Of a DNA stretch of 38,494 nt, positions 1-28,777 are shown piece after piece. The DNA comes from a virus. Its lineage: Duplodnaviria; Caudoviricetes. The stretch's first letter is position 1, and every line of letters begins with the position of its first letter. A program made the position numbers and the translations under genes. The notes beneath the pieces are model-generated. The model worked only from the letters and a program-made list of their open reading frames with translations. It searched no databases and was not told the origin of the DNA. The stretch is from the IMG/VR virus record IMGVR_UViG_3300032608_000443, positions 1-38,494 of that record, one strand, 5' to 3'.

Positions 1-52
1 ATTACACACTACTCTTGGCTTAGCTGTTCAGTACACTAGCACCTCATTAATA

Positions 53-107
53 TAGTATTTTCGTGCTTGCTTGCTTCGCAAGCATCTATGTTAGCACGAA
101 AATACTA
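53..107 (+). promoter_or_regulatory. Long hairpin directly before the first RBS (RNase III-like processing site or leader structure)
   Basis: TAGTATTTTCGTGCT (53-67) pairs perfectly with AGCACGAAAATACTA (93-107); inner hairpin TGCTTGC-TTC-GCAAGCA; AAGGAGG follows immediately. Confidence 0.6.
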
Positions 108-623: not shown

Positions 624-631
624 TGGTCAAG

Positions 632-680
632 AGTAGGTGGGTAGTAGGCTAAGTCTACTACTCACTTACTTATTTTTTTT
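632..680 (+). terminator. Intrinsic terminator
   Basis: 18-bp stem AGTAGGTGGGTAGTAGGC/GTCTACTACTCACTTACT (with G-U pairs), followed by a T run. Confidence 0.8.
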
Positions 681-3747: not shown

Positions 3748-3968
3748 TGCCTGAACTATGTCCGCATTGCGGTAGTGATGAGATACTATCCGATTACTTT
3801 GAAGATGAATGGTTGTACTGGTGTGGTCATTGTGGCCGCGAGATAATGGCTGAAACGGAGGAGAGTGATTATGAGTTCGACCCGTACGAATATGAAATTA
3901 CCATACCCAAAGCTAAGGGGAAACCTGAAGAGGATAGTTTACCCGGCCTGGGTAGAGATAAAGTATGA
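3747..3968 (+). CDS. Zn-ribbon acidic small protein
   Basis: CPHCG...CGHCG; TAATG coupling. Confidence 0.6.
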   Translation: MPELCPHCGSDEILSDYFEDEWLYWCGHCGREIMAETEESDYEFDPYEYEITIPKAKGKPEEDSLPGLGRDKV

Positions 3969-4659
3969 TGGCATACTAGGCTGGTGTGAATTTACAAGAG
4001 CTGGTGATAATAGTAATGCTACAGTATGGAATAAGTCTGGTAAGATATACCAAGATACAGACCATAGGCAAGCTAAGATAAAAGAATGTTGTTGTCAGCT
4101 TTTAGTCATAGGTGAAATTGTCAAGGGTAATGGAAAAAAAGGTGACTTGAAGAATGTTAAACCTAATGACTCAGGATTTCTTCCCTTTGATGTCTTAGAA
4201 TACAATTGGGTAAGCCAGAGAGAAAAGCCATTAATTGAGAGATTAGAGTTATTAAATTCAGTAGTAGAAGGTCCTACTCCATTTAGAGTAATACAATCAG
4301 AATCAGAAGTCATGGAATACTATAATAAATGGACCCAAAAAGGTTATGAAGGCATAGTAGTCAAGAACCTGAATGAGAGATATATGACTGGGCCATGCAA
4401 CTGGGTTAAGATCAAGGCCAAGGATCAGAATGATTACTTTGTATTCAGTATTGACCCAACGCTTGATAGAATTGAAGTAGCAGTACCAGCACCAACAGGT
4501 ATAAGTGGTAAATATGTAGGAGTCAAGGTAACACCAGCAGTTAAAGCAACACTTAAGAAATGTGATACTGTAATTATTGAACACCAAGGTGTAACAGCTA
4601 GTGGCTCTTTACGCCACCCAGTGTTCATAAAGAAAGTGGAGGATGGAGATGGCAACTAG
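3892..4659 (+). CDS. lig: Minimal ATP-dependent DNA ligase
   Basis: EIKYDG (motif I), GEIV, FDVL, EGIVVK, WVKIK, C-terminal OB-fold LRHPVF. Confidence 0.9.
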   Translation: MKLPYPKLRGNLKRIVYPAWVEIKYDGILGWCEFTRAGDNSNATVWNKSGKIYQDTDHRQAKIKECCCQLLVIGEIVKGNGKKGDLKNVKPNDSGFLPFDVLEYNWVSQREKPLIERLELLNSVVEGPTPFRVIQSESEVMEYYNKWTQKGYEGIVVKNLNERYMTGPCNWVKIKAKDQNDYFVFSIDPTLDRIEVAVPAPTGISGKYVGVKVTPAVKATLKKCDTVIIEHQGVTASGSLRHPVFIKKVEDGDGN

Positions 4660-5773
4660 TGTAGTAAGTAATGAACAACTGAAGGCACTGAGGGATGAGT
4701 TAGCCAAGCAGGGTAAGATTAAAGCTTGGCAGATTAAGGATATGATTGCAGTAAAATATGGTGTAACTCTTGATGAGAGTATTATTAGGGGTAGATTCAT
4801 AGAGATGGGTGAGCCATTAAGTGGCGGTGGTGGTCCTAAGCCAGCTAAAGCAGCAACTAAGGTATCAACTACTCAAAGAGCTGACTTCAAGCAGACCGTA
4901 GCTCATAAAGAACATGATATACCAGATGATATGAGAAAGTACATTCCTGATGCTAATGAGTTTGCTGGTTACATTGAGAGAGATGTAGATACCAGATTAG
5001 CAGTGCATTATAACCTGGGTAAATATCCTATCACTCAAGGTAAGCAGGGTACAGGTAAGACCTTTGGTCATATGTACTATGCTCATAAGGCCCAATTACC
5101 ATTCTTATTATTTAGTGGATATGAGGACTTCAAGCTGACCAAGCTGTTTGGTGATAAGACAATCATCAAGGGCAGCATAGTATTCCAGGAGAGTATTTTT
5201 GTTAAAGCTATCCAATGTCCAAGCGTAATCTTATTTGATGAGATCAATGCAGTAAGTAATGCCAATACCTTTGACTTCCATGCCTTGCTACAGAACAGAG
5301 AGTTATTCATCAAGGATGCTGATGATGGTAGGGGTAGAGTGTATAATTTGCATCCTGAGTGCAGGATAGGATTTGCTCAGAATCCCAAGTCAGCTAAGTA
5401 TATTGGTGGTTGTATTAAGCCAAGTAACTTCTTAGGCAGATGTACATATATCACTTATCCTGAGTTCACTAAAAATCAGATAGAAAAAGCAATTAAGCTG
5501 AGGTATCCCAAGATGGATGAAGTTGAAATCCTGAAGTTCTCTACTTATTACTTTGCAGTACTGCAGACAATAGAAAGAGCTAGTTTACCAGTAGATGTCA
5601 GTATTAGGCAGCTTAATAATCTAATTGATATGTGGATGGCCGGCATGCCACTCAAGAATGCAATTGAAGATGCGGTCAGTAGTATATTAGATGCAGTGTC
5701 ACAACCCAAGGCTAAAGATAGCTTTAATAAACTTGCGGAGGCAATATGGCAGGAACTAATGAAAAAGAAATAA
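4643..5773 (+). CDS. MoxR/CobS-like AAA+ ATPase
   Basis: Walker A GKQGTGKT, Walker B ILFDE, sensor AQNP, arginine finger FLGR, sensor II SIRQL. Confidence 0.85.
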   Translation: MEMATSVVSNEQLKALRDELAKQGKIKAWQIKDMIAVKYGVTLDESIIRGRFIEMGEPLSGGGGPKPAKAATKVSTTQRADFKQTVAHKEHDIPDDMRKYIPDANEFAGYIERDVDTRLAVHYNLGKYPITQGKQGTGKTFGHMYYAHKAQLPFLLFSGYEDFKLTKLFGDKTIIKGSIVFQESIFVKAIQCPSVILFDEINAVSNANTFDFHALLQNRELFIKDADDGRGRVYNLHPECRIGFAQNPKSAKYIGGCIKPSNFLGRCTYITYPEFTKNQIEKAIKLRYPKMDEVEILKFSTYYFAVLQTIERASLPVDVSIRQLNNLIDMWMAGMPLKNAIEDAVSSILDAVSQPKAKDSFNKLAEAIWQELMKKK

Positions 5774-6048
5774 TAAAAGTAGGGGACATAATTGTCAGAA
5801 GAGAAGGTATAAGGCCCACTTGGATAAAAGACTTTAAGCCAACGATAGTCACAAAGATAACTTCAGCCAAGAAGTGCCGTAGTTATGGTGGTGATGGAGC
5901 ATGTTTGATATGTCCTGGAAGAATAAATGATGAGTGCTATGGATATGATGATGCTTACGCCTGTTGCATAGTAGTAAGACCTATATTATCTAGTCCTAGC
6001 AATATTCAAAGGGTTATTGAAATAGAAGTAGCTAAATTACTAGCGTAA
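5746..6048 (+). CDS. Cys-rich KOW/SH3-like small protein with shared C-terminal helix
   Basis: IKVGDIIV near N-terminus; six Cys; ends IQRVIEIEVAKLLA. Confidence 0.6.
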   Translation: MAGTNEKEIIKVGDIIVRREGIRPTWIKDFKPTIVTKITSAKKCRSYGGDGACLICPGRINDECYGYDDAYACCIVVRPILSSPSNIQRVIEIEVAKLLA

Positions 6049-6201
6049 GCACCAGAGCTACCGGTGTCCGAGCTCAACTGAGTGTTACCAAGCGGAGCGG
6101 TAACACGAAGGAGTGTTCGTGATACGAACAATGCTGCGATGAGCATGCGGAGCGCGAAGAGCAGCCGAGAAAGAGCTGGGTAACCGGTAGTCTCTGATGC
6201 T
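6048..6201 (+). ncRNA. Structured RNA element E1
   Basis: Closing stem CAGAG-CTACCGGT/ACCGGTAG-T-CTCTG; hairpins GTGTTACC/GGTAACAC, TGTTCGT/ACGAACA, GCTGC-GATGA...GAAGA-GCAGC. Confidence 0.75.
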
Positions 6202-6213
6202 GAAGCGAAGGAG

Positions 6214-6507
6214 ATGATGAATAAGTTTAAAGTAGGGGAAAAAGTTAAAATACTGCCTTTACCTCATCCTGATGATCCAGATGGGCGAGCGCCTGGAACT
6301 AATGAAGAAATGCTTAGATTAGTAGGTCAATACGGTAGAGTAATAAATGATCAGGGTGCCTCTAAAGATTGGTATACTGTCAGTGTAAAAGGTAGAGGTA
6401 CTTGGAATTACAGAGAAGAATGGCTGGAAAAACGAAATCCAGAAGAAGTTACTGACCTTGAGAGTGTTATTGCTCAAGTAGTAGCTAAGATAAGGGGAGG
6501 TAAGTAG
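6214..6507 (+). CDS. KOW/SH3-like (YorP-like) small protein with shared C-terminal helix
   Basis: FKVGEKVKI...GQYGRV...YTV...WNYREEWLE; ends LESVIAQVVAKIRGGK. Confidence 0.7.
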   Translation: MMNKFKVGEKVKILPLPHPDDPDGRAPGTNEEMLRLVGQYGRVINDQGASKDWYTVSVKGRGTWNYREEWLEKRNPEEVTDLESVIAQVVAKIRGGK

Positions 6508-8012
6508 TGGCAAACAGAAGGACCTATGAGATCCTTGCTAAATGGATAGCTAAGAAGCAAGGCATAACAATAGAATTTAAGCCTGATATTACACCTCAGG
6601 TAAATACTGATACTAATCATATAATACTGCCCAGTAACATTGATGAGCAGAACATATATGCAGCTTTGGCTCAGCTAATGCACGAGGCAGCTCATTTGAG
6701 ATACACTAAGGGCATTCCTATCAAAGAGATAGTTAGTGATCAACTCTCATTTGAGCTGCTAAATGCAATTGAGGACATCAGAATTGATCAGAAGAACTTC
6801 AGGATACTACCTAATATCCATGCTTTCTATGAGCGGTTAATAGATCATGTAATGGAATGGCGTAAGGAGAATAATGTCCAGCCTAAAGACATACCACTGC
6901 ATAGAAGAGTGTTGGGTGATATCAAGTGTGATATGGAAGACTTCCGTGATGGTAAGTGGAATGATCCAGAGACCAAGAAGTTAATCGATGACCATGATAT
7001 TTATGACATAATATATGAGACCATAAATGATCTTGAGCACGGTAGATGGCCTAAGGTAAAAGCAACTATTCAAAAGCTTATGAAAATCTTTAAGCTAGAT
7101 AAGTTACCTAAGCAGCCAATAGGCCAGCCAGGAGATTGTGGTACATGTGGTGGTAGTGGAGAAGTAGCACAGCCTGGTGAGGAGGAGGGGGGAAAAATTA
7201 AGTGCCCTGACTGCGGAGGTACTGGTAAAGAAGGCTTTGGTAATGAACCTGGTAAAGAGAAAGTATTTGGTACTAAGCCTGGTACTGGTACATGTCCTGG
7301 TTCATCTGCTATAGGTGAAGTAGCCATGGAAGAGCTGACTAAGCAGAAATTTAGAGAGCTGCTTAATGTCAAAGAGAAGAGAACAGTATATGATGGCCAT
7401 GAGATTGATAGTGATAATCTTACAGCATTCCTGACTGGAGATATTGATGAGTTATTTACTGAAGAAAGAGTAGTCAGGAATAAGAAGAGTAAGATAGCTA
7501 TACTAATAGATGCTTCAGGATCTATGGATTGTGAGTTAATGGATGGTGAGCCAAGGAGAGAAGTAGTAGGTGGTTGTATTAAGAACTTGGTTGAGATACT
7601 GGATGAGGTCATGGTGTTAGAAGGCATTAATGTAGACTACCAGGTAGGTGGGTTTACTGAAGACTATCATCCTTTCCAGAAGGAGACATGGGAAAAGGAA
7701 TATACTACCATATCAGGTGGTACCAATCTATTAGAAGCATTCAATCAGGTTCATGGTGAATTAGTAGCAGACCAGGAGATAGATGGTAACAGGTTAATGA
7801 TCATGTTTACTGATGGTGAGGTAGATAACAGTGAAGTAGTAGATATGAAGAAGGCTATCATGAGGCATGGTGAAGATGTCAGGTGTATGATCATAGGTGT
7901 TGGTGCTGATCTGAATAGTCACATAGTTAAAGAAGTAGTTGGTGATCACAATATATTAGTAAAAGAAGCAGCAGATCTAATATTAATCGAGACTATAATG
8001 CAGATGCTGTAG
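6507..8012 (+). CDS. CobT-like MoxR partner: HExxH domain, DnaJ-type Zn finger and C-terminal vWA
   Basis: HEAAH...NAIEDIRI; CGTCGGSG and CPDCGGTG; MIDAS DASGS, GGT, TDG. Confidence 0.85.
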   Translation: MANRRTYEILAKWIAKKQGITIEFKPDITPQVNTDTNHIILPSNIDEQNIYAALAQLMHEAAHLRYTKGIPIKEIVSDQLSFELLNAIEDIRIDQKNFRILPNIHAFYERLIDHVMEWRKENNVQPKDIPLHRRVLGDIKCDMEDFRDGKWNDPETKKLIDDHDIYDIIYETINDLEHGRWPKVKATIQKLMKIFKLDKLPKQPIGQPGDCGTCGGSGEVAQPGEEEGGKIKCPDCGGTGKEGFGNEPGKEKVFGTKPGTGTCPGSSAIGEVAMEELTKQKFRELLNVKEKRTVYDGHEIDSDNLTAFLTGDIDELFTEERVVRNKKSKIAILIDASGSMDCELMDGEPRREVVGGCIKNLVEILDEVMVLEGINVDYQVGGFTEDYHPFQKETWEKEYTTISGGTNLLEAFNQVHGELVADQEIDGNRLMIMFTDGEVDNSEVVDMKKAIMRHGEDVRCMIIGVGADLNSHIVKEVVGDHNILVKEAADLILIETIMQML

Positions 8013-8146
8013 CTCAGCTGAGACATGGAGCATCTTCTGAAGTGCTGCGGGCGGATGCAAGCAGCACAAGCGATTGGCCTGATGAGTGTGAGAACACGAA
8101 GAAGGACAATAAAAGATGCGCAATGTCTGGGCTGAGCTTACAGCAT
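8004..8146 (+). ncRNA. Structured RNA element E2 (same architecture as E1)
   Basis: ATGCTGTA-GCTCAGCT-G-AGACAT / ATGTCT-G-GGCTGAGC-T-TACAGCAT; GCATCTT/AAGATGC; GTGCTGC/GCAGCAC; GATGA-GTGT-GAGA-ACAC-GAAGA. Confidence 0.75.
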
Positions 8147-8251
8147 ATCGGAACTGATGAGTTGGGCGTACGCGTGGTCCTAGCAATCCAGCTGAGCACA
8201 CATAAAAATGCACCAAAATAAGCTAAATAAGCTAAAGGAAGGAGAAATAAT

Positions 8252-8908
8252 ATGGCCTATCGATTAAATATTGTTGATAGTAAAAATGGCCTGTCATTTA
8301 ATGTCAGGTACGAGAACTTAGCCAAAGCTAAGAGGCCAAGCATCACAGCCAGGAATAGTGATGGTAAAGAAATCAAGCAGGTAACTAAGTATGGTGATGA
8401 GATCTTGCAGAAAGGATCCACCAGGAAGGCCTGGGTAGATGACGCGGGCCAGGAGTACAGTAAAACAGAGCTTAACTTCTGGATAGATGAGCAGCAGGTA
8501 GAAGAGATAGATCAGACTAAGGTGTTTGATATTGAAGGCTTCCAGCCAGTCTGCAACTATACTGATACCTATGTTATCAGTGCTTACTATGAGGTCTATC
8601 CAGATAACAATGGCATGAAGAAGGACATAGATAGGCAGAAAGCAGAAGCAGCTAATAATACTCAGATGTATAAGCTATGGAAATACCTAGATGACAATCA
8701 GTTAGTAGCTAGGGGGGAATTTAATCCAGCGAGCCGTGGTTTTATAGCCAGCGATGGTTATATAAGAGCCATTAAAGTAGGAGGAGGTTGGGCATTGGAA
8801 ATTGGCGTTTTTAAAGAACAAAAAACATTTAATCATTTACAAGTTGGTGAACCCAAAGCAGTTAAGGTAAAATCTAAATCCAAAGGATCGCGAATTAAAT
8901 TAGTATGA
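8252..8908 (+). CDS. Probable divergent Ku-like DNA-end-binding protein
   Basis: TKVFDIEGFQP...YVISAYYEVYPD...MYKLWKYL...LVARGEF follows the prokaryotic Ku core pattern (ieIeeFVp..idpiy..pYyl.Pd...aY.lL..al....vaia.f); basic C-terminal tail. Confidence 0.55.
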   Translation: MAYRLNIVDSKNGLSFNVRYENLAKAKRPSITARNSDGKEIKQVTKYGDEILQKGSTRKAWVDDAGQEYSKTELNFWIDEQQVEEIDQTKVFDIEGFQPVCNYTDTYVISAYYEVYPDNNGMKKDIDRQKAEAANNTQMYKLWKYLDDNQLVARGEFNPASRGFIASDGYIRAIKVGGGWALEIGVFKEQKTFNHLQVGEPKAVKVKSKSKGSRIKLV

Positions 8909-12803: not shown

Positions 12804-13267
12804 ATCCTCCCTAATAGTTTAACCTGTTTGTCTACAGCCATTTGTACCTTTTCTTCTAAGGTCTTAGGCATAACAAAGGGGTTATGGTTGCCTACTTTTG
12901 GTATTGGTGGTGGTTTACTACTTAGTAATTTAAGTGCAGCTGGTACTAATGATGGTGGTACTAGCAACACTGGTTCATTTGGATTAGGCATATTTCTAAT
13001 CGCTTCTACATCTGCACTGTTATTCACCTCACCATACAATGATATCCTGGTATCACAACGGAGACAAATGATCTCTAAATCCGTTTCGCACCATGCTGTA
13101 CCATCTACTTTCTTACAGATAGGGCACCAGAATTGAGCTCGGTAATACTTAGTACCATTAACTGTTTTACTCTCCCCAAATGATGGGGCAGTGCTCTTAA
13201 GCATAGTTGGCCCAGTACTAGCTGATAGCTTCTTCATCTTAGTTCTAAAAGAGGCTTTTGTCGTCAT
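12800..13267 (-). CDS. Zn-finger protein with shared C-terminal helix
   Basis: CPIC...CLRC; Pro-rich linker; ends VQMAVDKQVKLLGRI. Confidence 0.65.
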   Translation of the reverse strand: MTTKASFRTKMKKLSASTGPTMLKSTAPSFGESKTVNGTKYYRAQFWCPICKKVDGTAWCETDLEIICLRCDTRISLYGEVNNSADVEAIRNMPNPNEPVLLVPPSLVPAALKLLSSKPPPIPKVGNHNPFVMPKTLEEKVQMAVDKQVKLLGRI

Positions 13268-14018
13268 AGTTTCCCTCCAGTGCCTTTACATAATTATCAT
13301 CATTAGCTATAAACCAGTCAATACCAAAGGGTTGGCCAGTTCTGTTGTTGCCTAAGCAGAAGCCTGAGTTAGCCATCTTACCCAACGCGGCTTCCCAGTT
13401 GTCCTTGAAGTGTTGGTTCTTAAGTCTAGCTATAATCTTAGCAGTCCGGGCCTTGCTAATAGTGGCCACCTTCTTCAATTCAGTTGAGTTCCACTTATTT
13501 ACAATATAGCTTAATACTTCTTTATTACTTATTAAGTCTTTCTTGATAATATTATTGTTTACTTTATTAGCTTTTCTTATTACTTTATTAGTTCTATTAG
13601 TATTAAAAGCTTCTTCTTCTTCTTCTTGTACCCTAACGGTTACCTTACCTAGATAGGGTAGCTTGTTAGGGTAACTAGATAGGTTAAGACCATGTCTCTT
13701 GATTAGCTTCAAAACAGTCTTATGTGGAGCACAAGTAGCTGATAAGCAACCATATTGATATTCAATGAAGTGGGGTAAGTGCCATTTACCTGATGGTAGG
13801 ACTACTAACCGCTCTTTACCTTCATTAAATATCTCTAATATCTCCTCTACGCTAAGTGGTGTCCCTACATAAAAGCTAGCTAAACCTATATCCTCTTTCC
13901 ATACCCCTGCCTTATCACATTCATCTAAGATGTATGCCCAGAAGACTTTATACTGCATTGGTAGCCTTCTAAACCAGGGATCTTGCCATTTCTCCGTCTC
14001 AGTAAACCGCTTCATCAC
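13245..14018 (-). CDS. Phage replication initiator / replisome organizer
   Basis: KRFTETEKWQDPWFRRL...YILDECDKAG N-terminal domain; C-terminal WN...R...FCLG...IDWF...NYVKALEGNYDD. Confidence 0.75.
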   Translation of the reverse strand: MMKRFTETEKWQDPWFRRLPMQYKVFWAYILDECDKAGVWKEDIGLASFYVGTPLSVEEILEIFNEGKERLVVLPSGKWHLPHFIEYQYGCLSATCAPHKTVLKLIKRHGLNLSSYPNKLPYLGKVTVRVQEEEEEAFNTNRTNKVIRKANKVNNNIIKKDLISNKEVLSYIVNKWNSTELKKVATISKARTAKIIARLKNQHFKDNWEAALGKMANSGFCLGNNRTGQPFGIDWFIANDDNYVKALEGNYDDKSLF

Positions 14019-15549: not shown

Positions 15550-15887
15550 TTCTTCCTCAGGACTAGTATCCCAAGTATGACCACAGGTGCCCAGGTCAGT
15601 AACCCAATAAGGTTACCATGTACTGAGTACCCCTGTAATGCCTCAGCTATCATGTACAGCATAGTAGCCAATGTTACTACGATTGTGTATATCGCTAGTA
15701 CTTTCATATTGACCTCCTCCTTCTTTCCCGGCCATACTCAGGCTTAGGTTGTGGGTTCTCTAACTTCTCCTTAGCTATAGCCTTGGCCCTAGTATCCTGC
15801 TTCATACGTAGCTTCTCATAGTGGAACTTGTATCTTTCTTTCTTGTAAGCGTTAGCACCTAATCTCTTACCCATTACTTCTCCTCTT

Positions 15888-15950
15888 AGAGCGGGTGGGG
15901 TAAGGCAGACCTGGCATCTAACCTTACCCCTTTTTCCCGCCTGTTGCTCT
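15888..15950 (-). terminator. Hairpin downstream of the SSB gene
   Basis: GCGGG-T-GGGGTAAGG / CCTTACCCC-TTTTT-CCCGC. Confidence 0.45.
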
Positions 15951-15960
15951 AGGTAGGCAC

Positions 15961-16401
15961 CTAGAAAGGACAGCTTTTATCCTCTACTTGAATATCAGGC
16001 TTAATTAAATATTCACCTGTAATGGCATAGCCTTCTACCTTGTTGTTATTGTACTGCTCATTGAACTTTACTGTCCAGTATACGGTTCTGTGATTGCACT
16101 GGTCAAGTATCTTATTGAATGCAGGGCTACTTACTTCCATGTCCGGCACCTCTTCAAGATCCAGGCCACAGGAGTTAACCAGCGTAGCTAGTCTCCAGAG
16201 AGAACCCTCAGTAAGTGGTGTATGGTCTACTATCTTACCACCCTTATGCTCTTCTGGTTCCTGTATCTCAGCAAACCAACGGATCTGCTTAGTACCAGTC
16301 TTAGCTTCACATGGTTCCCAGCCAGTTATCTCAACCTTGTAAGTTCCATCAGGATAGATCTGGCGATCCCCACCTGATTCCTTCTTCCAACTCATCTTCA
16401 T
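15961..16401 (-). CDS. DUF669-like single-stranded DNA-binding protein
   Basis: YPDGTYKVEI...KTG...LWRLATL; acidic C-terminus ending PF; lies near the Sak4-like gene. Confidence 0.7.
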   Translation of the reverse strand: MKMSWKKESGGDRQIYPDGTYKVEITGWEPCEAKTGTKQIRWFAEIQEPEEHKGGKIVDHTPLTEGSLWRLATLVNSCGLDLEEVPDMEVSSPAFNKILDQCNHRTVYWTVKFNEQYNNNKVEGYAITGEYLIKPDIQVEDKSCPF

Positions 16402-21586: not shown

Positions 21587-21875
21587 GTCTCTCAGTTCCT
21601 TTCCAGATCCTACCCATGTTCTTGAGTAGTGGTGCCGTCTGGGGGAACATTATCTTTTCTTGAATCCAGAGATATTTATCAATAGTTATCTTACCGCTTT
21701 CTAGATATTTGTCAAGTTCTTTCGGGTGAGCTCTGAGGTAGTTAGCTATCTTATCATCATGATAACTGATCTCTTCTACATCCCTGCGGATAGCTTCATT
21801 CTGTGAAGGGTCACCACCTGGTTCAACAGCTTGCCCTAGCTTAACACTAGCTCCCATTAAGCCAACGCCTCTCAC
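21558..21875 (-). CDS. Stand-alone paralogue of the C-terminus of the 2301-aa protein
   Basis: YLRAHPKE[LI]DKYLESGKIT and flanks shared with the last ~108 aa of the upstream gene. Confidence 0.8.
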   Translation of the reverse strand: MRGVGLMGASVKLGQAVEPGGDPSQNEAIRRDVEEISYHDDKIANYLRAHPKELDKYLESGKITIDKYLWIQEKIMFPQTAPLLKNMGRIWKGTERHGIKQRTEF

Positions 21876-24800
21876 CTCCCTTCTCTAAGTATTTTTAATG
21901 TCCGTGATTCTATACCGTGCTTTTGAGTACCTTCTATGATCGTATTTATATCTCTAAGTAATGGAACTGATACCGGCGCTGCAGCCTTCTTCTTCAACCA
22001 CAATGCTTGATCATAAGTTATCTTACCACTTTCTAAATATTTGTCAATCTCTTTCGGGTGAGCCCGCAGATACATCATGATCTTATTATTATAATAATCT
22101 ATCTCTTCCTTATCTCTCCTCCTAGCTTCATTGAGCTCAGGAGACATACCTTCTTCTTGACCAGGACCAAGCTTAACATTAGCTCCAAATAACCCAATTC
22201 CCTGAGCTAGCCTTCCTTGCCAGGTCTTAGCCATGTGCCCTGGAACATGCCAATCCTTTTTAAATTCAGTAGGCAAGACACCCTGAGTAACCATAGTCAT
22301 CAAGTCTTTCATATAATTGACAACCCCTACTGTCTTAATATCCCATAGCACCTTATTATCCATTGCATCCCGCGCAGTAACCCAGCCAAGAATGTTATTA
22401 ACTGGGACATTCAGCTTGCCCCTGAAGTACCTAAACTTATCATGGATAATACCAACAATCTGAGGAAACTCTCTCCACATAAGCACATCAAGAAAGAAGA
22501 AGCCACCAGTTACTGAGCTCTTCCAAGGAGTTTTAATCCAGAACTTCCCCATTCCATTGTTTAAGAAAGCCCACTTATCCTCTTCTTTTGTATCCTCAGG
22601 ACCAAAAGCCTGCCATAAAGCAAACTGTATAAGATTATTAAATACTGTCCTGGTACCAGCAACTCTTGCTAAGTGCTCAGCATAGATACCAGTCATGGCT
22701 GCCATGTCCGTAGCAGATTTCTCCCCATGGAGAAGAGAATTCATCATTGAACCACCAGCTCTGGCTAACTTTGGTAGGAATGATGGGTTACCATCTATTG
22801 CCCTATAACCATGGCCCATATACCAGAGAGGATAAGCAGCACCTGTCAGCTGCCTAAAGAAAGACATAGTAAAGTCACGGGCAAAGAGAACGCATGCTAG
22901 TAATGGCCCTTCATGGCCATAAACTGAGCTATTAAGCAAACCAGTCAGGTCACCCACCAGCATAGTAGCCCTGCGAGCTGCAGTATCCTCAGCCCAGCCT
23001 TCCTCCATAAACCTGTCATAGAAGGTGCTACATAGTTCATATATAATCTTAGGTAAATAGTGATTAAAAGCCGCGTTGTCCATACCAAACTTACTAGATA
23101 CAACTTCAGCCAAGTTATCAAATATAGGCCGTTGGTTAGGGTGCTGGGTATCTACAGACTTCTGATATAGTGACATCAAGGCCCAGTCCATAGAGAAAGA
23201 AGGAATACCATGTTTAAGCATATGGTACATCTTCTTTGCCTCGTAGTCATTATCCTTGAAGTGTTCCAAGGGATCATGCTGACGTAAAACTGTATTCCTT
23301 ATATCTCTAAACCCTCTTATTATAGGAGTTGCTTTAGCATTAACTCCCTTGAACCAGCCAGGAACAAAAGGTTTGATACCATGGTTCCAAGCCTGCTTAA
23401 GTCCCAAATGAGCCCAAGGAGTAGATGCCATCTGGAACATATATTTCATAGGGGTAATCATAATAAGTCTTTTAGCTGTCCTAGCATACCTGAGTATAGC
23501 TTTCATCCAGCCTGGAGTCCTAACATCGCGGGGTAAGGATTTAAATAAATCAAATACGTTCCTATGAACATATGGTGCCTGGAATGAACCCTTATGCCAT
23601 ACAGCTAATCCTTGCTCTGACTTAAGCTGAACATAGCCTAGTTTAGTAAAGATAGCGTTGGCTTCAGCTGCGTTATCACTAATTTCATGTTCATAAGAAA
23701 CCATATTTAAAGGCTTGCCTTCATAAACTACTCCTGAATCTAACTTCATTAACCGCTCTACTAAATTATGCTGATCAATTAGCCTCCCCATAGTCTCAGC
23801 ATATGAGCCGGCCACAGTAGAGAAGCTTTCTGATGGCTGCAACGAATCACTAGTCTCACCTTCAACTGCTATCTCAGCTTTAGTTTTAACCCAGAACTCA
23901 TCATAAGTACGGTAGTTACGTTCAGGTACCCTCAGCTCTCCTATATTACCAGTAAATTCCTTGGATGATCTCTGGTGTAGTGGCTTAGCTACAATCCTTT
24001 TAGTATAACCCTCTTGGTGTAATGAGTAGATCCTTGACCCATCTAGAGCACCAGATTCAAGACCAGCTTCAAGACCAGGATTCTGTATGTCATTCTTAAA
24101 ATCTATTACTGTATCTTTAAGAGAAGCTGGTACTAACTTACCATAAGCAAATTGATCTCTGCCAGCAGCCCAGTTAGATACATCCTGAGCAGTTATAGGT
24201 AAGTCTAACCTACGGTGCATTTCTGTCATGCCAGCTACGAAAGTAGCTGCCTCTTCTTGAGTTTCATGCTTACCACCAAGACCTATATTACTAGCATAGA
24301 ATTGACCAGGAACATTCTTACCTACTAATTCTTCAGAATGCTTAAGGAGTAACCAGTCATAAGCTTTAAAAGTTTTATCAGCTGCCATACTGGTACGCTT
24401 CCCTTTGAAGGTACTCTTTCTACCTATACCAGGAAACTTACTAGGAGTAACTGGAAATAAGGTATCAACATAATCCCATATTTGTCCTTGTATATCATTC
24501 TGGATAGCCCCACCAACAGTAGTATGTAAGGTTACAGATCTCTTAATAGCCTGCATATAATTAATAGCTTTGGACTTAAGGTGCAACTGCCACATCTTAG
24601 AAGGCTTAGGCCACTCCCAACCAGCTATTCTATCTTTACCATAAAAGCGGATTAACATCTCACGCTTTTCAAGATCTTCAACACCAAATATCTTCATAGC
24701 TGCAAGGTGCATTCTCATCATAGTACTAACTGACTGATGCTTAGCACCAGAAGAACTCTCATTAATATTTATAGGTTTAGTACCCTTGAAGTTAGGCCTG

Positions 24801-27800
24801 GGTTGACCACCCAACGCTTCATCAAGTTTCTTCAGGTTCTCAGGATTGAATCTCTTCATCGCATCATCAATGTGATCCTTATGATCCTTGGCTGCCTGCT
24901 TTTTAAAGTCATTAACAGCCTTCTCATAGTAAGCTTTAACCACCTTCTTGTTATCAAGGTAAGCTAGCTGTTTCTTCTTGAACCCTTCTATCTGTGCCTT
25001 CTTGCGGTCTACATACTTACCATTCTCCAGGTTCTTATATAACTTCTTAATCTCTTTCTCAGCTAGCCTTATTCTACCATCAACTGACCTTAGCTGAGCG
25101 TAGTACTCATCCGCCAGCTCCTTGGCCTTGAGCTTACTTATCTCAGCTTGGTTGAGGTCAATCTCCCGCATACCAAGGATACCCTTATCTCCAATGTATT
25201 CCCATATCCTTTGAGCTGAGCCTTTCCTACCAGCTGAACGCTTCTGAGCTGATATAATCCTATTAGCTACTGCTAGCTTTTCTCTTAAAAAAGCTTGCTG
25301 CTCATCAGTAAGTAGGTCCATAACCTTCTGCACTGAACTCATTACATCAGTAGAATCTAAATTGATATTAATACCAAGATCATTAAAGTAAGCTTGAGCT
25401 ATGTCAAAAACAGCCAATCCAATTGATTCACCCTTCTCATCTAAAACTATAGGTTCACTGGAAAGAGTCTGCTGCTTAGCGAAGTTCTCTGTTTCAGTAT
25501 CAATCTCCTGGACTATGCTACTAGGTGACTGGGTTCCTTTCTTAGCTATATACTTATCTATGAAATCAACACCAGTAAACTTGAATTTGCTCTTACTAGG
25601 TCTGGTTGGAATACTCTGCACTTTATTGTCAGAATCATAAGGGATGATTGATTTCTCAAGTTCATAAGCTAAATCAGCTCTACCAGCTTTTTCTAAAGCT
25701 ATAATAGAAGCCATCATCTCATCCATTTCCGTACCATCAAGGCCGGTATTCAGATGAGCACGCTCATGCTCTACTGCAAACTGGAAGAACTGGCTCTTAC
25801 TTATCCCTCTTGGTAAGCGTTGTAACAACCAACCCGATTCCCCAAATCTACGACTCCTAGACTTACCTTCAAGCCTGAAGTGCTTAAAACCTGTAAAGCC
25901 CTTGTTATATACATTCCAGTACTTATCCAAGGTCTTCTGCTGAACATAGATAGTACCATTACTTCTCTTAACCCCGGCTGCTCTGAAGGCCTTCTTACCC
26001 CTAGGATCAAGATTAAACATAGTAGTACCATCTTTCCACTCCTGATTCCTAATCATCACGCGTATAGCTTTCTCTGGCTTATCTACCTTCTCGGCCATAC
26101 GCCTGTATTTATCAAGTAACTCAGCACTAGCTTTAGGATTCTTTATTACCGGAGGATAGGTACTAGTGAAGTCTAGCTTCCCAGCCTTTACTGTTGGCTT
26201 GACTTCTTCAAGTTTATCACGAAAGTACTCTGGGCCATGCTGCAAGTCTGATCTTTCATGAATATACCCTAAAGCCTTCTCAGACATATTTACAGCATTA
26301 GTTACTTTACCTTCATAGTATAACCTTTCAGCTAGATCTACTATTTCATATATCTTTTTTTGTCCTCTAACTCGTTCTCCAATATTCTTACCAGGTATAT
26401 CCCAATTCTTAGCAGCAGTCCTCAACTGCTGAAAATAATGTAGTATCTCAGCTTCAACAGCAGTAGCAAAACCCTTAGTTCTTGCTGGATGCTTATGTAA
26501 TCTATCAAGAGTCACTTGATCAAACCCAACCGGCCCCTTACCTAATCCTTCTGGTCCGATATCTACCACAACAGGTTTGGGTGGTTCCGGGAGAGGAGCT
26601 TCCTCATCTATTACTGCTCCTTCAACTACATCAACTACAGTGTACTGGGCCTCAGCTGCAGCAGGATCAGGGAACTTAATACCTTTTTTATTAATAAGAT
26701 GCTGAATTAGGCTTTCTGTTTCAGAAGCCATATCTCTTTCACCAGCCCGCTCAGCTAAGTAGTGCATATCTTTTGGTAGTATACCATAAGCCAGCATGAG
26801 GTCTGGGAACTCATGTGCTATGTGAGGCTTCTTATCTACACCCATCCATAAAAGAAACTTAGTTCCTCCTTTCCTGTTTGGATCACCCCCTATTACAACA
26901 GCTACATTCTTTACCCCTTCATCCAGATACTTAGCTATGGTGGGAGCTATGTCAGGTACATTAGCACCCTTCTCTAGCATGGGAGATATTAATCTTATAA
27001 GAGATTCAGCAATAGGACCAGGTAGCTTTGCAAAGGTAGGAAACTTATCCTTGTTATCTTCTAGGAAATCAACAAGTGTATCCCTAGCCTTTATTCTTTG
27101 ATTATCATCAATCGGATCTAAGGATACCTGAGTAGAAGCCTTATCACCCTTCTTATACATATTATATTGATACTGAGGTCTTTCACCTCTGAGAGTAGGC
27201 TCAGTCCTAGGTGGCTTACCATCAACAATATTCTTAACTTGCTTCCTATTAAATTCACCTAGCTTACCATCACCATCTTTGATTATCTCAACTTTATATT
27301 TATCTGATAAGGCTACTACATCACCAAGGTTCTCTTCAATAAAGGTCAGGTCTTTCTCTTCTTGAGATAGCTTTTCTAATGCTACAGGCCGGCCAGTCTT
27401 CTTATCTATGAACCCAACGCTTGGAGCATACTGATAACTCTTAGTCTTAAGTCTGGGTTCTATCTTCTCATGAAGATTAAACCTGGTCTTATCCATGGCC
27501 TTCATAAAGTCACCCTGAAGGGCAGTCTTCTGGCCACCTCCATCTAGAATTTCGGCTCTATTAGACTCCTCGGCCCTTAGCTTCATGGTTGAACCAACTT
27601 CACCAGCAAGACCACCACCACCGGCAGGCATAGTAATAAAAGCCGTAGCTTTAAGAGCTTGAGCAGTTTCCTTAAGAGCATCTTGAGTTAGCCTACCAGC
27701 TATATCAGCATGAGTAAGCCGACCCCCTGGACCAGTACCCTTAAGATTACCAGCCAGATAATCACCTATAATTAATGTAGCATTCTCAACTATCTTCTGT

Positions 27801-28777
27801 ATACCTTCTTCAGAAGCTTCAGCACCCCAGATCTTTAAGTATTGTTTTATACCGCGGTTAATAGCCTTATGAACAGCAGGGTGCTTAATAGCTTTAGGGC
27901 CAAGGAACTTAAGAACAGGATACTTGCCTACAAGGTGAGATAACGATAGTACTTCAATTGCACCAATAGCTGCACCACCAGCCATAGCTAATGGTTGAGC
28001 TATGTTCTTAGGGATATCTTTATGTCTCATCTCACCATAGATAAGACCACCCTCAACATCCATACCATACTTAATAACACCAGCAGTAAAACCTAATTCC
28101 ATAGTACCTGCAAGCACGGCCAGATCATCAGCAGGAGTAAGAGCTAAGGGACCTTGAGCTGCTTGAGATGCAGTATAAGCACCAGCTACAGGCAAGAGGG
28201 CCCCAGCTGTGGCCATACCTGATAGAGCTGAATCCAGCATATACGGAAGAGCTTTAGCACCAGCACCTAATAAGTTCTTAAGGGGAGCTTGTTCCCAGGT
28301 GGGGGTTACATGAGGTATCTTTTCATATTTATCATAGATAAGTTTCTCACTAATAAAGGCATGTTCATCATCATCCCTGCCATCAAACCAAGTTTTAGAC
28401 CAGTTAAGGCCTGCTTCCCTAGGTAAACCACCCCGCTGAAACTCAGTCTTGGCTACCTCCCAAGCAGAGCCTACCTTCTTAGGTTCACCTAGCTCCTGGC
28501 CAAAGAGACTCTTGACCATAGGCTGAACCTTTTTCCTATAGAAATTCTTAATCGTAGCTGACTTTGAAGGAGGGATTACTTGTTCTGCTTTGATACTTGG
28601 CTTTAATCTATTCTTAAAAATACCAGCATCTAATTGAGCATCAAAATCACTCTGCACATTTTGCTGAAGTTGGACCTGAGGCTGGGCCTGGGCAGGCTTA
28701 GCTACGGGTTTAGATATAGGCTTCTCTTTTACAGCAGTTGAGCTAAACCCTTCATTTAACCAATCAAATTTCCCCAT
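21872..28777 (-). CDS. Giant internal virion / DNA-ejection (polyvalent-like) protein
   Basis: 2301 aa; follows two ejection-like genes; Ala/Gly-rich membrane-like region with AEASEEGIQ; internal HERAH. Confidence 0.7.
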   Translation of the reverse strand: MGKFDWLNEGFSSTAVKEKPISKPVAKPAQAQPQVQLQQNVQSDFDAQLDAGIFKNRLKPSIKAEQVIPPSKSATIKNFYRKKVQPMVKSLFGQELGEPKKVGSAWEVAKTEFQRGGLPREAGLNWSKTWFDGRDDDEHAFISEKLIYDKYEKIPHVTPTWEQAPLKNLLGAGAKALPYMLDSALSGMATAGALLPVAGAYTASQAAQGPLALTPADDLAVLAGTMELGFTAGVIKYGMDVEGGLIYGEMRHKDIPKNIAQPLAMAGGAAIGAIEVLSLSHLVGKYPVLKFLGPKAIKHPAVHKAINRGIKQYLKIWGAEASEEGIQKIVENATLIIGDYLAGNLKGTGPGGRLTHADIAGRLTQDALKETAQALKATAFITMPAGGGGLAGEVGSTMKLRAEESNRAEILDGGGQKTALQGDFMKAMDKTRFNLHEKIEPRLKTKSYQYAPSVGFIDKKTGRPVALEKLSQEEKDLTFIEENLGDVVALSDKYKVEIIKDGDGKLGEFNRKQVKNIVDGKPPRTEPTLRGERPQYQYNMYKKGDKASTQVSLDPIDDNQRIKARDTLVDFLEDNKDKFPTFAKLPGPIAESLIRLISPMLEKGANVPDIAPTIAKYLDEGVKNVAVVIGGDPNRKGGTKFLLWMGVDKKPHIAHEFPDLMLAYGILPKDMHYLAERAGERDMASETESLIQHLINKKGIKFPDPAAAEAQYTVVDVVEGAVIDEEAPLPEPPKPVVVDIGPEGLGKGPVGFDQVTLDRLHKHPARTKGFATAVEAEILHYFQQLRTAAKNWDIPGKNIGERVRGQKKIYEIVDLAERLYYEGKVTNAVNMSEKALGYIHERSDLQHGPEYFRDKLEEVKPTVKAGKLDFTSTYPPVIKNPKASAELLDKYRRMAEKVDKPEKAIRVMIRNQEWKDGTTMFNLDPRGKKAFRAAGVKRSNGTIYVQQKTLDKYWNVYNKGFTGFKHFRLEGKSRSRRFGESGWLLQRLPRGISKSQFFQFAVEHERAHLNTGLDGTEMDEMMASIIALEKAGRADLAYELEKSIIPYDSDNKVQSIPTRPSKSKFKFTGVDFIDKYIAKKGTQSPSSIVQEIDTETENFAKQQTLSSEPIVLDEKGESIGLAVFDIAQAYFNDLGININLDSTDVMSSVQKVMDLLTDEQQAFLREKLAVANRIISAQKRSAGRKGSAQRIWEYIGDKGILGMREIDLNQAEISKLKAKELADEYYAQLRSVDGRIRLAEKEIKKLYKNLENGKYVDRKKAQIEGFKKKQLAYLDNKKVVKAYYEKAVNDFKKQAAKDHKDHIDDAMKRFNPENLKKLDEALGGQPRPNFKGTKPININESSSGAKHQSVSTMMRMHLAAMKIFGVEDLEKREMLIRFYGKDRIAGWEWPKPSKMWQLHLKSKAINYMQAIKRSVTLHTTVGGAIQNDIQGQIWDYVDTLFPVTPSKFPGIGRKSTFKGKRTSMAADKTFKAYDWLLLKHSEELVGKNVPGQFYASNIGLGGKHETQEEAATFVAGMTEMHRRLDLPITAQDVSNWAAGRDQFAYGKLVPASLKDTVIDFKNDIQNPGLEAGLESGALDGSRIYSLHQEGYTKRIVAKPLHQRSSKEFTGNIGELRVPERNYRTYDEFWVKTKAEIAVEGETSDSLQPSESFSTVAGSYAETMGRLIDQHNLVERLMKLDSGVVYEGKPLNMVSYEHEISDNAAEANAIFTKLGYVQLKSEQGLAVWHKGSFQAPYVHRNVFDLFKSLPRDVRTPGWMKAILRYARTAKRLIMITPMKYMFQMASTPWAHLGLKQAWNHGIKPFVPGWFKGVNAKATPIIRGFRDIRNTVLRQHDPLEHFKDNDYEAKKMYHMLKHGIPSFSMDWALMSLYQKSVDTQHPNQRPIFDNLAEVVSSKFGMDNAAFNHYLPKIIYELCSTFYDRFMEEGWAEDTAARRATMLVGDLTGLLNSSVYGHEGPLLACVLFARDFTMSFFRQLTGAAYPLWYMGHGYRAIDGNPSFLPKLARAGGSMMNSLLHGEKSATDMAAMTGIYAEHLARVAGTRTVFNNLIQFALWQAFGPEDTKEEDKWAFLNNGMGKFWIKTPWKSSVTGGFFFLDVLMWREFPQIVGIIHDKFRYFRGKLNVPVNNILGWVTARDAMDNKVLWDIKTVGVVNYMKDLMTMVTQGVLPTEFKKDWHVPGHMAKTWQGRLAQGIGLFGANVKLGPGQEEGMSPELNEARRRDKEEIDYYNNKIMMYLRAHPKEIDKYLESGKITYDQALWLKKKAAAPVSVPLLRDINTIIEGTQKHGIESRTLKILREGR

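What the first reader, a model, noticed from the sequence alone, without database searches (positions are those of the whole stretch)
6048..8146. Two structured RNAs (E1 6048-6201, E2 8004-8146) with the same fold and conserved loop motifs but different stems
Both read: long basal stem, inner stem, CTGA, a hairpin with GCGGA in its loop, then stem-GATGA-hairpin-GAAGA-stem. Stem sequences differ while pairing is kept (GTGTTACC/GGTAACAC vs GTGCTGC/GCAGCAC; GCTGC/GCAGC vs CCT/AGG), which amounts to covariation within one genome. GAUGA/GAAGA can form two tandem sheared G-A pairs around a U-A pair, a protein-binding or kink-like module. Each RNA starts at the stop codon of the upstream gene, and together they bracket the KOW-like and vWA genes. 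I cannot assign them to a known family.
Basis: seen in the sequence. Interest (0 to 1): 0.8.

Follow-up and report, generated by a model that had tools for sequence, protein, structure and literature searches.

The report
G·A-rich phage stems, likely DNA signals
Two very stable folds between genes of a phage's ligase–Ku gene block belong to an uncatalogued class built from stacked G·A mismatches, and their make-up suggests they likely act as folded single-stranded-DNA priming signals rather than as RNAs, which is untested.

Summary
E1 and E2 are real: z −7.0 and −9.6, no Rfam hit. They are not one fold (E1 four-way, E2 three-way), and the pair is not conserved as a bracket around two genes. 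They belong to a class of 80–200-nt stems that run from a stop codon to the next ribosome-binding site in the ligase–AAA–vWA–Ku block of podoviruses that probably infect Omnitrophota (30 catalogued from 21 sources). Sequences are unrelated, but the parts recur: 40 of 57 2×2 loops are tandem G·A (shuffles about 3) and 18 of 25 3×3 loops are GNA/GNA. Homologues keep the G·A pairs and change the stems in compensation. That they are RNA is not shown. G·U pairs are rare (36/1091, against 133/926 in RNA controls and 13/209 in ssDNA origins), no UNCG loop occurs, and E1 carries two GCGGAGC DNA mini-hairpins. I favour ssDNA priming or primosome-loading signals (0.4) over mRNA processing or stabilising stems (0.3). 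Against that: coding-strand placement, several copies per operon, no enrichment of the recalled PAS words, and the probable origin position. Uncatalogued class, function untested.

The parts
6048..6201 (+). E1: four-way-junction stem from the stop of ORF 5746-6048 to just before the SD (6208-6213) of ORF 6214-6507; pairing can extend to 6044/6207
6078..6110 (+). E1 arm P2: T-GA-G/C-GA-A tandem G.A, 8-bp stem 6082-6089/6099-6106, capped by GCGGAGC (6092-6098), a DNA mini-hairpin sequence
   Evidence: mini-hairpin rule from PMC13037366
6115..6133 (+). E1 extra hairpin P3 (absent in E2); overlaps the word GAACAATG, the conserved apex of the post-Ku subfamily in relatives
6133..6165 (+). E1 arm P4: GCTGC/GCAGC stem, GA-T-GA/GA-A-GA double tandem G.A, second GCGGAGC cap (6147-6153); competes with another pairing in the RNA model (P=0.47)
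8004..8146 (+). E2: three-way-junction stem; the 16-bp basal helix contains the vWA stop codon (8010-8012)
8027..8122 (+). E2 3x3 GGA/GCA loop (8027-8029 with 8120-8122) and 7-bp inner stem closing the junction
8042..8067 (+). E2 arm P2: 7-bp stem, GG/AA loop, GC-GGAT-GC cap
8073..8110 (+). E2 arm P3: CCT/AGG stem, GA-T-GA/GA-A-GA module (8081-8085 with 8098-8102), GTGT-GAGA-ACAC hairpin (a GNRA loop)
3865..4659 (+). ATP-dependent DNA ligase (context gene)
   Evidence: PF01068, phrog_114
4643..5773 (+). MoxR/CobS-like AAA ATPase (context gene)
   Evidence: PF07728, phrog_249
6214..6507 (+).
6507..8012 (+). vWA-domain partner of the AAA ATPase; some relatives are labelled Ca. Omnitrophica
8252..8908 (+). 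Ku-core-fold protein
   Evidence: AlphaFold pLDDT 85; Foldseek to Ku70/80 and mycobacterial Ku
53..107 (-). Stem near the probable left genome end whose GCGAAGC cap lies on the template (minus) strand, directly before the first early SD; possibly of the same class
13559..13686 (.). Iteron-like and AT-rich repeats inside the replication-initiator gene (13245-14018, minus); candidate origin
   Evidence: the origin role is inference

Best explanation
E1 and E2 are members of a class of strand-specific folds built from stacked G·A mismatches in this phage group's ligase–AAA–vWA–Ku block, and they likely work as folded single-stranded DNA that would let the host's PriA-type machinery load a primosome, as the phiX174 and ColE1 priming sites do. 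Shown: the folds, the G·A grammar, compensatory change in homologues, the scarcity of G·T pairs, and PriA in two MAGs that hold related contigs. Inferred: tandem G·A and GNA/GNA loops give a stable fold on one strand only, because the other strand reads TC/TC and makes no cruciform. When the coding strand is bared (an R-loop behind early transcription, end resection or strand displacement), it would fold into a branched, SSB-resistant structure capped by GC-GNA-GC mini-hairpins that mimics a fork. Helicase and primase would then be loaded and copy that strand. On this reading the stop-to-SD fit only reflects tight gene packing, as at the phiX174 F–G site.
For: High-confidence pairs that are G.U/T: elements 36/1091 (E1 0/40, E2 1/47), RNA controls 133/926, ssDNA-origin controls 13/209 (pairs are not independent, so the Fisher p of 1.7e-19 overstates). 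G.U excess over the reverse strand is small (4.9 vs 3.8%; T7 stems 18.6 vs 4.3%). Loops: 0 UNCG and 3 GNRA of 52; exact C-GNA-G triloops 3/52, against 0/121 in E. coli RNAs, 0/59 in SPO1, 0/6 in T7 and 2/11 in M13. A looser rule gives 7/52 (two doubtful), 4/167 RNA and 2/24 ssDNA. GCGNAGC melts at 70-76 C as DNA, and mini-hairpins occur at G4/ST-1 origins, RSF1010 ssiA and N4 promoters (PMC13037366, passages and section 5 part 1). Tandem G.A does not perturb B-DNA stability (PMC11014236, passages). E1 matches the phiX174 F-G region at 11 of 12 nt. The catalogue shares 29 8-mers with it against about 11 expected (2 of 300 reference shuffles reach 29; reverse strand not enriched). Stems with the GA-type caps on the template strand precede the first early gene in the window, L007 and L016. 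PriA passes its cut-off in both Omnitrophota MAGs (2 of the 3 genomes searched). pas is a fork-like hairpin used by phiX174 and ColE1 (PMC5778457, passages).
Against: All 7 of 314 stable local folds with two or more G.A modules lie on the coding strand. An SD-like word lies within -6 to +9 nt of the last pair in 25 of 30 elements (no chance control). Some phages have three copies in successive gaps (L069, L013) or two in tandem (L064, L072), more than one priming site needs, while only 5 of 17 neighbourhoods had a strict intergenic hit. Recalled PAS consensus words are not enriched (4 vs 3.6, 1 vs 1.2, 0 vs 1.2). The phiX174 8-mer result is one of 24 tests; ColE1 sharing is weak and not strand-specific, and G4 shows none. 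No ssDNA control has this G.A density, and phiX174 itself scores 20% G.T. Triloops overall are not enriched over terminator-like hairpins (15/52 vs 8/43). E2 has a GNRA loop and no GNA triloop. A lambda-like origin at 13.56-13.69 kb would make the + strand the leading template for a leftward fork. I picked the catalogue from high-z folds, which favours Watson-Crick pairs.
Confidence: 0.4

Rival explanations
1. They are RNA stems in the polycistronic early mRNA that set processing and decay. An RNase III-type cut or an exonuclease block at the base would protect the upstream cistron and free the next SD, as in the T7 early region.
For: Coding strand in 7 of 7 unbiased hits; stop-to-SD fit in 25 of 30; several per operon, mostly right behind the ligase, AAA, vWA or Ku genes. 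E2's basal helices are 16+6+7 bp. T7 stems sit in the same kind of position (sites located from recall), and RNase III processes lambda, T7 and T3 RNAs (PMC5371410, passages). Tandem G.A, GAA/GAA and GGA/GAA loops (6 of 18), GNRA loops and multiway junctions are ordinary RNA motifs (own knowledge).
Against: G.U content is a quarter of that of the RNA controls. T7 and SPO1 stems have almost no G.A modules (0 and 1). By eye the T7 sites resemble each other in sequence, whereas E1 and E2 do not. Simple stabilisation does not need branched G.A arms or invariant GA dinucleotides.
Confidence: 0.3
2. They are ligands or decoys for a protein of the block. As released RNA (possibly closed by the phage's Rnl2-like ligase) or as ssDNA, the G·U-poor, G·A-rich rods would bind the Ku-like protein or a host DNA-end or dsRNA sensor.
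For: Confined to the ligase-AAA-vWA-Ku neighbourhood in 7 records scanned whole. A subfamily directly behind the Ku gene keeps the apex GA-ACAAT-GA in 9 of 10 cores while flanking pairs covary. A solved Ku-RNA complex (Ku70/80 with TLC1) is among the fold matches. RNA ligase gene at 1971-2510.
Against: E1 and E2 do not match the post-Ku model. Position relative to Ku varies, and 12 of 17 neighbourhoods lack a strict intergenic hit although all have Ku. No binding test is available.
Confidence: 0.13
3. They are attC-like single-strand recombination sites that shuffle the small variable genes of the block.
For: Successive intergenic copies (L069, L013). Weinberg 2017 notes this pattern for attC and DUF1874, and that ssDNA and RNA motifs are hard to tell apart (PMC5737381, passages). 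Gene order in the block varies.
Against: No conserved end triplets across elements. No contig of the four runs skips E1 to E2 (contigs show presence only). No integrase among the 51 ORFs scanned in a 73% complete record.
Confidence: 0.06
4. They are self-cleaving ribozymes, hammerhead-like or new.
For: E2 contains CUGAUGA-stem-GAAG, one base from the recalled hammerhead core; an RNA ligase gene lies nearby.
Against: E1 has CGAUGA. No third stem with an NUH site is visible. Across the class there is no invariant catalytic core or topology, and there is no Rfam hit.
Confidence: 0.05
5. They are unselected by-products such as chance palindromes or template-switch scars.
For: Template switching makes perfect, G.U-free stems (own knowledge); the class is patchy.
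Against: z -7 to -9.6; 40 tandem G.A against at most 6 in 25 shuffles; invariant GA with compensatory neighbours in homologues.
Confidence: 0.02

Closest known systems
phiX174 primosome assembly site (F-G intergenic) and ColE1 ssi/pas
   Same: Intergenic, between a stop and an SD on the coding strand; stable imperfect stem with a C-GA-A/T-GA-G tandem and a GC-GNA-GC cap; 11/12-nt match to E1 and a 12-nt identity between ColE1 and the L063 element; 8-mer sharing with phiX174.
   Different: Here the stems are longer and branched with far more G.A modules, up to three per block, in a tailed dsDNA phage. Recalled PAS consensus words are not enriched and no PriA test exists. The site positions in phiX174 and ColE1 are recalled, not annotated in the fetched records.
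RNase III processing stems of T7 (and SPO1) early mRNA
   Same: Long stems from a stop codon to just before the next SD, several per early operon.
   Different: The T7 stems are 45-55-nt simple hairpins with 19% G.U, no tandem G.A and similar sequence among copies. These are branched, 3% G.U, G.A-rich and unrelated in sequence.
DNA mini-hairpins at G4/ST-1 origins, RSF1010 ssiA and N4 vRNAP promoters (PMC13037366)
   Same: GCGGAGC and GCGAAGC caps in E1 (twice), at window 53-107 and in relatives.
   Different: In E1 they are on the non-template strand. The 2301-aa virion protein resembles LPD38/39 proteins, not an RNA polymerase.
attC sites and the DUF1874 motif (PMC5737381)
   Same: Structured elements in successive intergenic gaps, with RNA versus ssDNA undecided.
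   Different: No Rfam match, no conserved core triplets, no integrase seen, no excision joint.

Membership tests
phiX174-type primosome assembly site (PAS/ssi) | Stable imperfect stem-loop when single-stranded, on one strand | tested here: met
   DNA-parameter z -5.8 and -8.4, + better than -; prediction only
phiX174-type primosome assembly site (PAS/ssi) | Resists SSB, stimulates PriA ATPase and supports primosome loading | not testable with these tools
   needs biochemistry
phiX174-type primosome assembly site (PAS/ssi) | Lies on the displaced or lagging-template strand | tested here: inconclusive
   GC skew switches near 9 kb, which fits forks entering from the ends; repeats in the initiator gene point the other way
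phiX174-type primosome assembly site (PAS/ssi) | Short consensus words reported for PAS (recalled, from no call) | tested here: not met
   4 vs 3.6, 1 vs 1.2, 0 vs 1.2 in 300 shuffles; one copy is in E1
phiX174-type primosome assembly site (PAS/ssi) | Host encodes PriA | tested here: met
   over the cut-off in both Omnitrophota MAGs, not in the Microgenomates MAG; host assignment is indirect
T7-type RNase III processing site | Stem between a stop codon and the next SD in the early operon | tested here: met
   E1 yes; 25 of 30 elements; E2 ends about 90 nt before the SD
T7-type RNase III processing site | Double-stranded region above the minimum target size | tested here: met
   E2 16+6+7 bp, E1 4+13+2+5 bp; minimum given as 22 nt in PMC5371410
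T7-type RNase III processing site | Simple G.U-containing hairpin, similar among copies | tested here: not met
T7-type RNase III processing site | Cleaved by RNase III | not testable with these tools
   needs an in vitro assay or RNA reads
Any Rfam 15 family | Score at or above the gathering threshold | tested here: not met
   window 0; 20 related loci 0; 10 loci 0 at E<=1
Hammerhead ribozyme | CUGAnGA and GAAA core, three stems, NUH site (recalled) | tested here: not met
   E2 GAAG, E1 CGAUGA, no third stem (sequence)
k-turn / box C-D | 3-nt bulge next to tandem G.A (recalled) | tested here: not met
   modules are symmetric 2x2, 3x3 and 5x5 loops
Integron attC | Conserved core triplets at both ends and an integrase | tested here: not met
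   the record is 73% complete
N4-type virion RNAP promoter | GNA-triloop hairpin on the template strand and a virion RNA polymerase | tested here: not met
   E1 caps are on the coding strand; the large virion protein has no DxDxD and LPD38/39 look-alikes
Post-Ku subfamily found here (model R1) | GC-GA-x-GA-ACAAT-GA-y-GA-GC apex | tested here: not met
   R1 finds L049 and L050 (E about 7e-13) but not E1 or E2; E1 shares only the 8-nt word

The most novel reading that the evidence does not exclude
A phage group has evolved a modular G·A grammar: sequence-unrelated, branched, G·U-free folds assembled from tandem G·A, GNA/GNA zippers and GNA caps. They serve its own Ku–ligase end-joining system as ligands or decoys, or couple end resection to re-priming of the linear genome, and so would be a kind of functional nucleic-acid element with no catalogued family.
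Probability: 0.15. Interest if true: 0.85.

Novelty: new variant of a known kind. Interest (0 to 1): 0.62.

Why it matters
Natural ssDNA structures more complex than hairpins are rare, and comparative pipelines cannot easily tell them from RNA (PMC5737381, passages). Here some 30 independent solutions share parts but not sequence, so clustering by sequence would tend to miss them. If they are priming sites, they extend PAS/ssi biology from E. coli microviruses and plasmids to tailed phages of a poorly known phylum and show natural use of G·A zipper DNA. If they are RNA, they have an unusual G·U-poor design. Either answer is testable with 150-nt oligonucleotides.

Tried and rejected
Single-protein locus searches found 1 distant locus and none; alignments were needed. 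The exact GATGA..GAAGA module was not found in the 76 loci held then, apart from the window's own copy and one unrelated duplicate pair. Pattern scan: 20 loci, only 1 from this family. Pattern scan: 120 loci of about 340 estimated, 109 distinct contexts, 9 non-coding or with two or more modules, the rest treated as chance. blastn of E1 and E2 and tblastn of Ku against 50,697 phage records: nothing useful. Solved-structure sequence search for Ku: nothing under E 0.4. No RNA holder listed. No variants or joints inside E1/E2 in four runs of one study that may be the source. Promoter scan at chance level (25 vs 25.7). The post-Ku model had only 4 consensus pairs and was not found in the 121 host-phylum genomes searched. 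The 10-nt word occurs 4 and 2 times in two host MAGs, so it is no REP-like repeat. CsrA sites, SECIS-like readthrough, k-turn, hammerhead, attC and N4-type promoter were considered from recalled consensus and rejected on the sequence. One of 31 hand-picked regions (L003) was dropped as unstructured before counting; L010, L060, L117 and L064b are borderline and were kept. Literature searches listed no paper on these elements. The Weinberg 2017 supplement could not be read, and 3 files of the Fremin 2023 supplement were not searched (6 searched, no match), so a prior listing is not excluded. The three bases of the fold-back at window position 1 remain unknown.
Full report
Context. The window is a 73% complete IMG/VR phage record with podovirus-type structural genes on the minus strand and an early + strand arm: RNA ligase 1971-2510, DNA ligase 3865-4659, AAA ATPase 4643-5773, vWA 6507-8012 and a Ku-fold protein 8252-8908 (pLDDT 85; Foldseek best E 5.7e-9). 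Three of the 103 proteins listed for the vWA query carry Ca. Omnitrophica names, and 2 of 3 GTDB contigs with the Ku-like gene are in Omnitrophota MAGs, so the host assignment is indirect. All four listed holders are freshwater DNA runs of one study that may be the source.

Observation. E1 and E2 fold with z -7.0 and -9.6 as RNA and -5.8 and -8.4 as DNA, better on + than on -. The folds differ: E1 has three arms, E2 two. E1's GATGA/GAAGA arm is 0.3 kcal/mol above the MFE, with P=0.47. MAFFT does not align the equivalent helices. Rfam has no match in the window, in 20 related loci or in 10 loci at E<=1.

A class, not a pair. Profile searches gave relatives. From folding scans I picked 31 regions, dropped one as unstructured, and kept 30 from 21 sources. 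They follow the stop of the ligase, AAA, vWA, Ku or small genes, and an SD-like word lies within -6 to +9 nt of the last pair in 25 of 30 (no chance control). In their RNA-model folds 40 of 57 2x2 loops are GA/GA (25 shuffles: mean 3.2 of 25.8, maximum 6), with contexts CGAG/CGAG 15, TGAG/CGAA 14, GGAG/CGAC 8 and other 3. Of 25 3x3 loops, 18 are GNA/GNA (GGA/GTA 7, GGA/GCA 4; shuffles 0.7). As a check on my picking, a both-strand scan of the window and six related records gave 314 stable local folds, of which 7 had two or more G.A modules, all on the coding strand in this gene block. The class is patchy. In 17 Ku neighbourhoods the strict rule gave intergenic + strand hits in 5, two hits inside coding regions (L007, L043) and one minus-strand hit (L007), and it missed known elements in L062 and L073.

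Covariation. Close homologues show double compensatory changes: L074/L117 and L013/L073. A post-Ku subfamily has the core GC-GA-x-GA-ACAAT-GA-y-GA-GC, with 10 copies in the 8 loci examined, outer pairs GC/GC or GT/AC, and inner pairs GC/GC, GT/AC or GG/CC. A model of six members found two more (E about 7e-13) but not E1, E2, phiX174 or ColE1. In L009/L049/L050 the core GA dinucleotides are invariant while neighbouring pairs change. Selection on a one-strand fold is therefore well supported for the class; no sequence homologue of E1 or E2 themselves was found.

RNA or DNA. The same pipeline was run on controls fetched by accession. The T7 sites, SPO1 gaps and the phiX174, ColE1, alpha3, M13 and pT181 origins were located from recall or by folding; only the G4 origin and the E. 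coli RNAs are annotated. G.U/T among pairs with P>0.8: elements 36/1091, pooled RNA controls 133/926, ssDNA origins 13/209. Terminator-like hairpins of the same phages have 78/565 in MFE folds. The elements have 0 UNCG, 3 GNRA and 3 exact C-GNA-G loops of 52, against 0 C-GNA-G of 186 RNA-control loops and 2 of 11 in M13. GCGNAGC is an exceptionally stable DNA mini-hairpin, and mini-hairpins occur at phage and plasmid priming sites (PMC13037366). E1 has it twice and matches the phiX174 F-G region at 11 of 12 nt. The catalogue shares 29 8-mers with that region against about 11 expected (2 of 300 shuffles; one of 24 tests), while ColE1 sharing is weak and G4 and T7 show none. Stems with such caps on the template strand precede the first early gene in the window, L007 and L016. 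Against DNA: coding-strand placement, tight stop-to-SD fit, up to three copies per block, no enrichment of recalled PAS words, no triloop excess over terminator-like hairpins (15/52 vs 8/43), E2's GNRA loop, 20% G.T in phiX174 itself, and no ssDNA control with this G.A density. Selection on high z also favours Watson-Crick pairs. Weinberg 2017 states that the two cases are hard to separate by computation.

Mechanism. I commit, at 0.4, to SSB-resistant ssDNA folds that mimic a fork and let host PriA load a primosome when the coding strand is bared by an R-loop, end resection or strand displacement. PriA is present in both Omnitrophota MAGs, and phiX174 and ColE1 use such sites (PMC5778457). Every step after folding is inferred. 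Strand logic is undecided. GC skew switches near 9 kb, which fits forks entering from the ends or simply transcription. Iteron-like repeats in the initiator gene suggest a leftward fork for which + is the leading template. The main rival (0.3) is mRNA processing or stabilisation, as for T7. Ligand or decoy for Ku (0.13), attC-like sites (0.06), ribozyme (0.05) and chance (0.02) follow.

Novelty. There is no Rfam family, no blastn hit among 50,697 phage records, and no paper on these elements in nine searches. Papers were seen as listings or passages, one also by section. The Weinberg 2017 supplement and three Fremin 2023 files were not seen and could list the post-Ku subfamily. Earlier scan notes describe the Ku-ligase block in sister phages but not these stems. 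Verdict: a real, uncatalogued class of G.A-built folds; probably a new variant of a known kind of signal; molecule and function untested.

Noticed in passing
window 1-30: Contigs of runs X2-X4 start exactly at position 1 (X1 15 nt beyond), and X4 has a 63-nt contig reading 30 to 1, three bases, then 1 to 30 (depth 8.4 vs 34): a fold-back or head-to-head joint at the probable left genome end; hairpin end or library artefact.
   Followed up: partly
   Followed up: partly
window 6507-8908: A vWA gene next to a Ku-core gene recalls the vWA-plus-core layout of eukaryotic Ku70/80 (recalled); order and spacing vary among relatives.
   Followed up: no
window 53-107; L007 1946-2126; L016 291-518: Long stems directly before the first early SD carry GA-type caps and tandems on the template strand; L007 has TATAAT just upstream.
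   Followed up: partly
L009 6657-6785, L011, L042, L045, L049, L050, L052, L053: Post-Ku subfamily with a conserved GA-ACAAT-GA apex; alignable, and the best target for R-scape.
   Followed up: yes
L009 3176-3308 (G005 5576-5708): Element with four GNA/GNA 3x3 loops in series (GAA/GGA, GGA/GTA, GTA/GTA, GGA/GTA); not in the 30-element counts.
   Followed up: no
L124/L140, L144, L165, L175, L194, L235: Unrelated phage contigs carry the same GCGAGC/GCGAAC words within about 350 nt of contig ends; L124/L140 are the inverted ends of one 16-kb contig.
   Followed up: partly
window 8154-8195: After E2, CTGATGA and CTGA flank a short possible stem, like boxes C and D; probably chance.
   Followed up: no
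window 13559-13686: Iteron-like 22-nt and AT-rich 12-nt repeats inside the initiator gene: candidate lambda-type origin.
   Followed up: partly
window 21872-28777: 2301-aa virion protein with LPD38/LPD39 look-alikes (score 0.94) and no DxDxD motif.
   Followed up: partly
window 631-671 and 15878-15972: 19-pair terminator-like hairpin in the early arm; strong stem before an SD on the minus strand.
   Followed up: no
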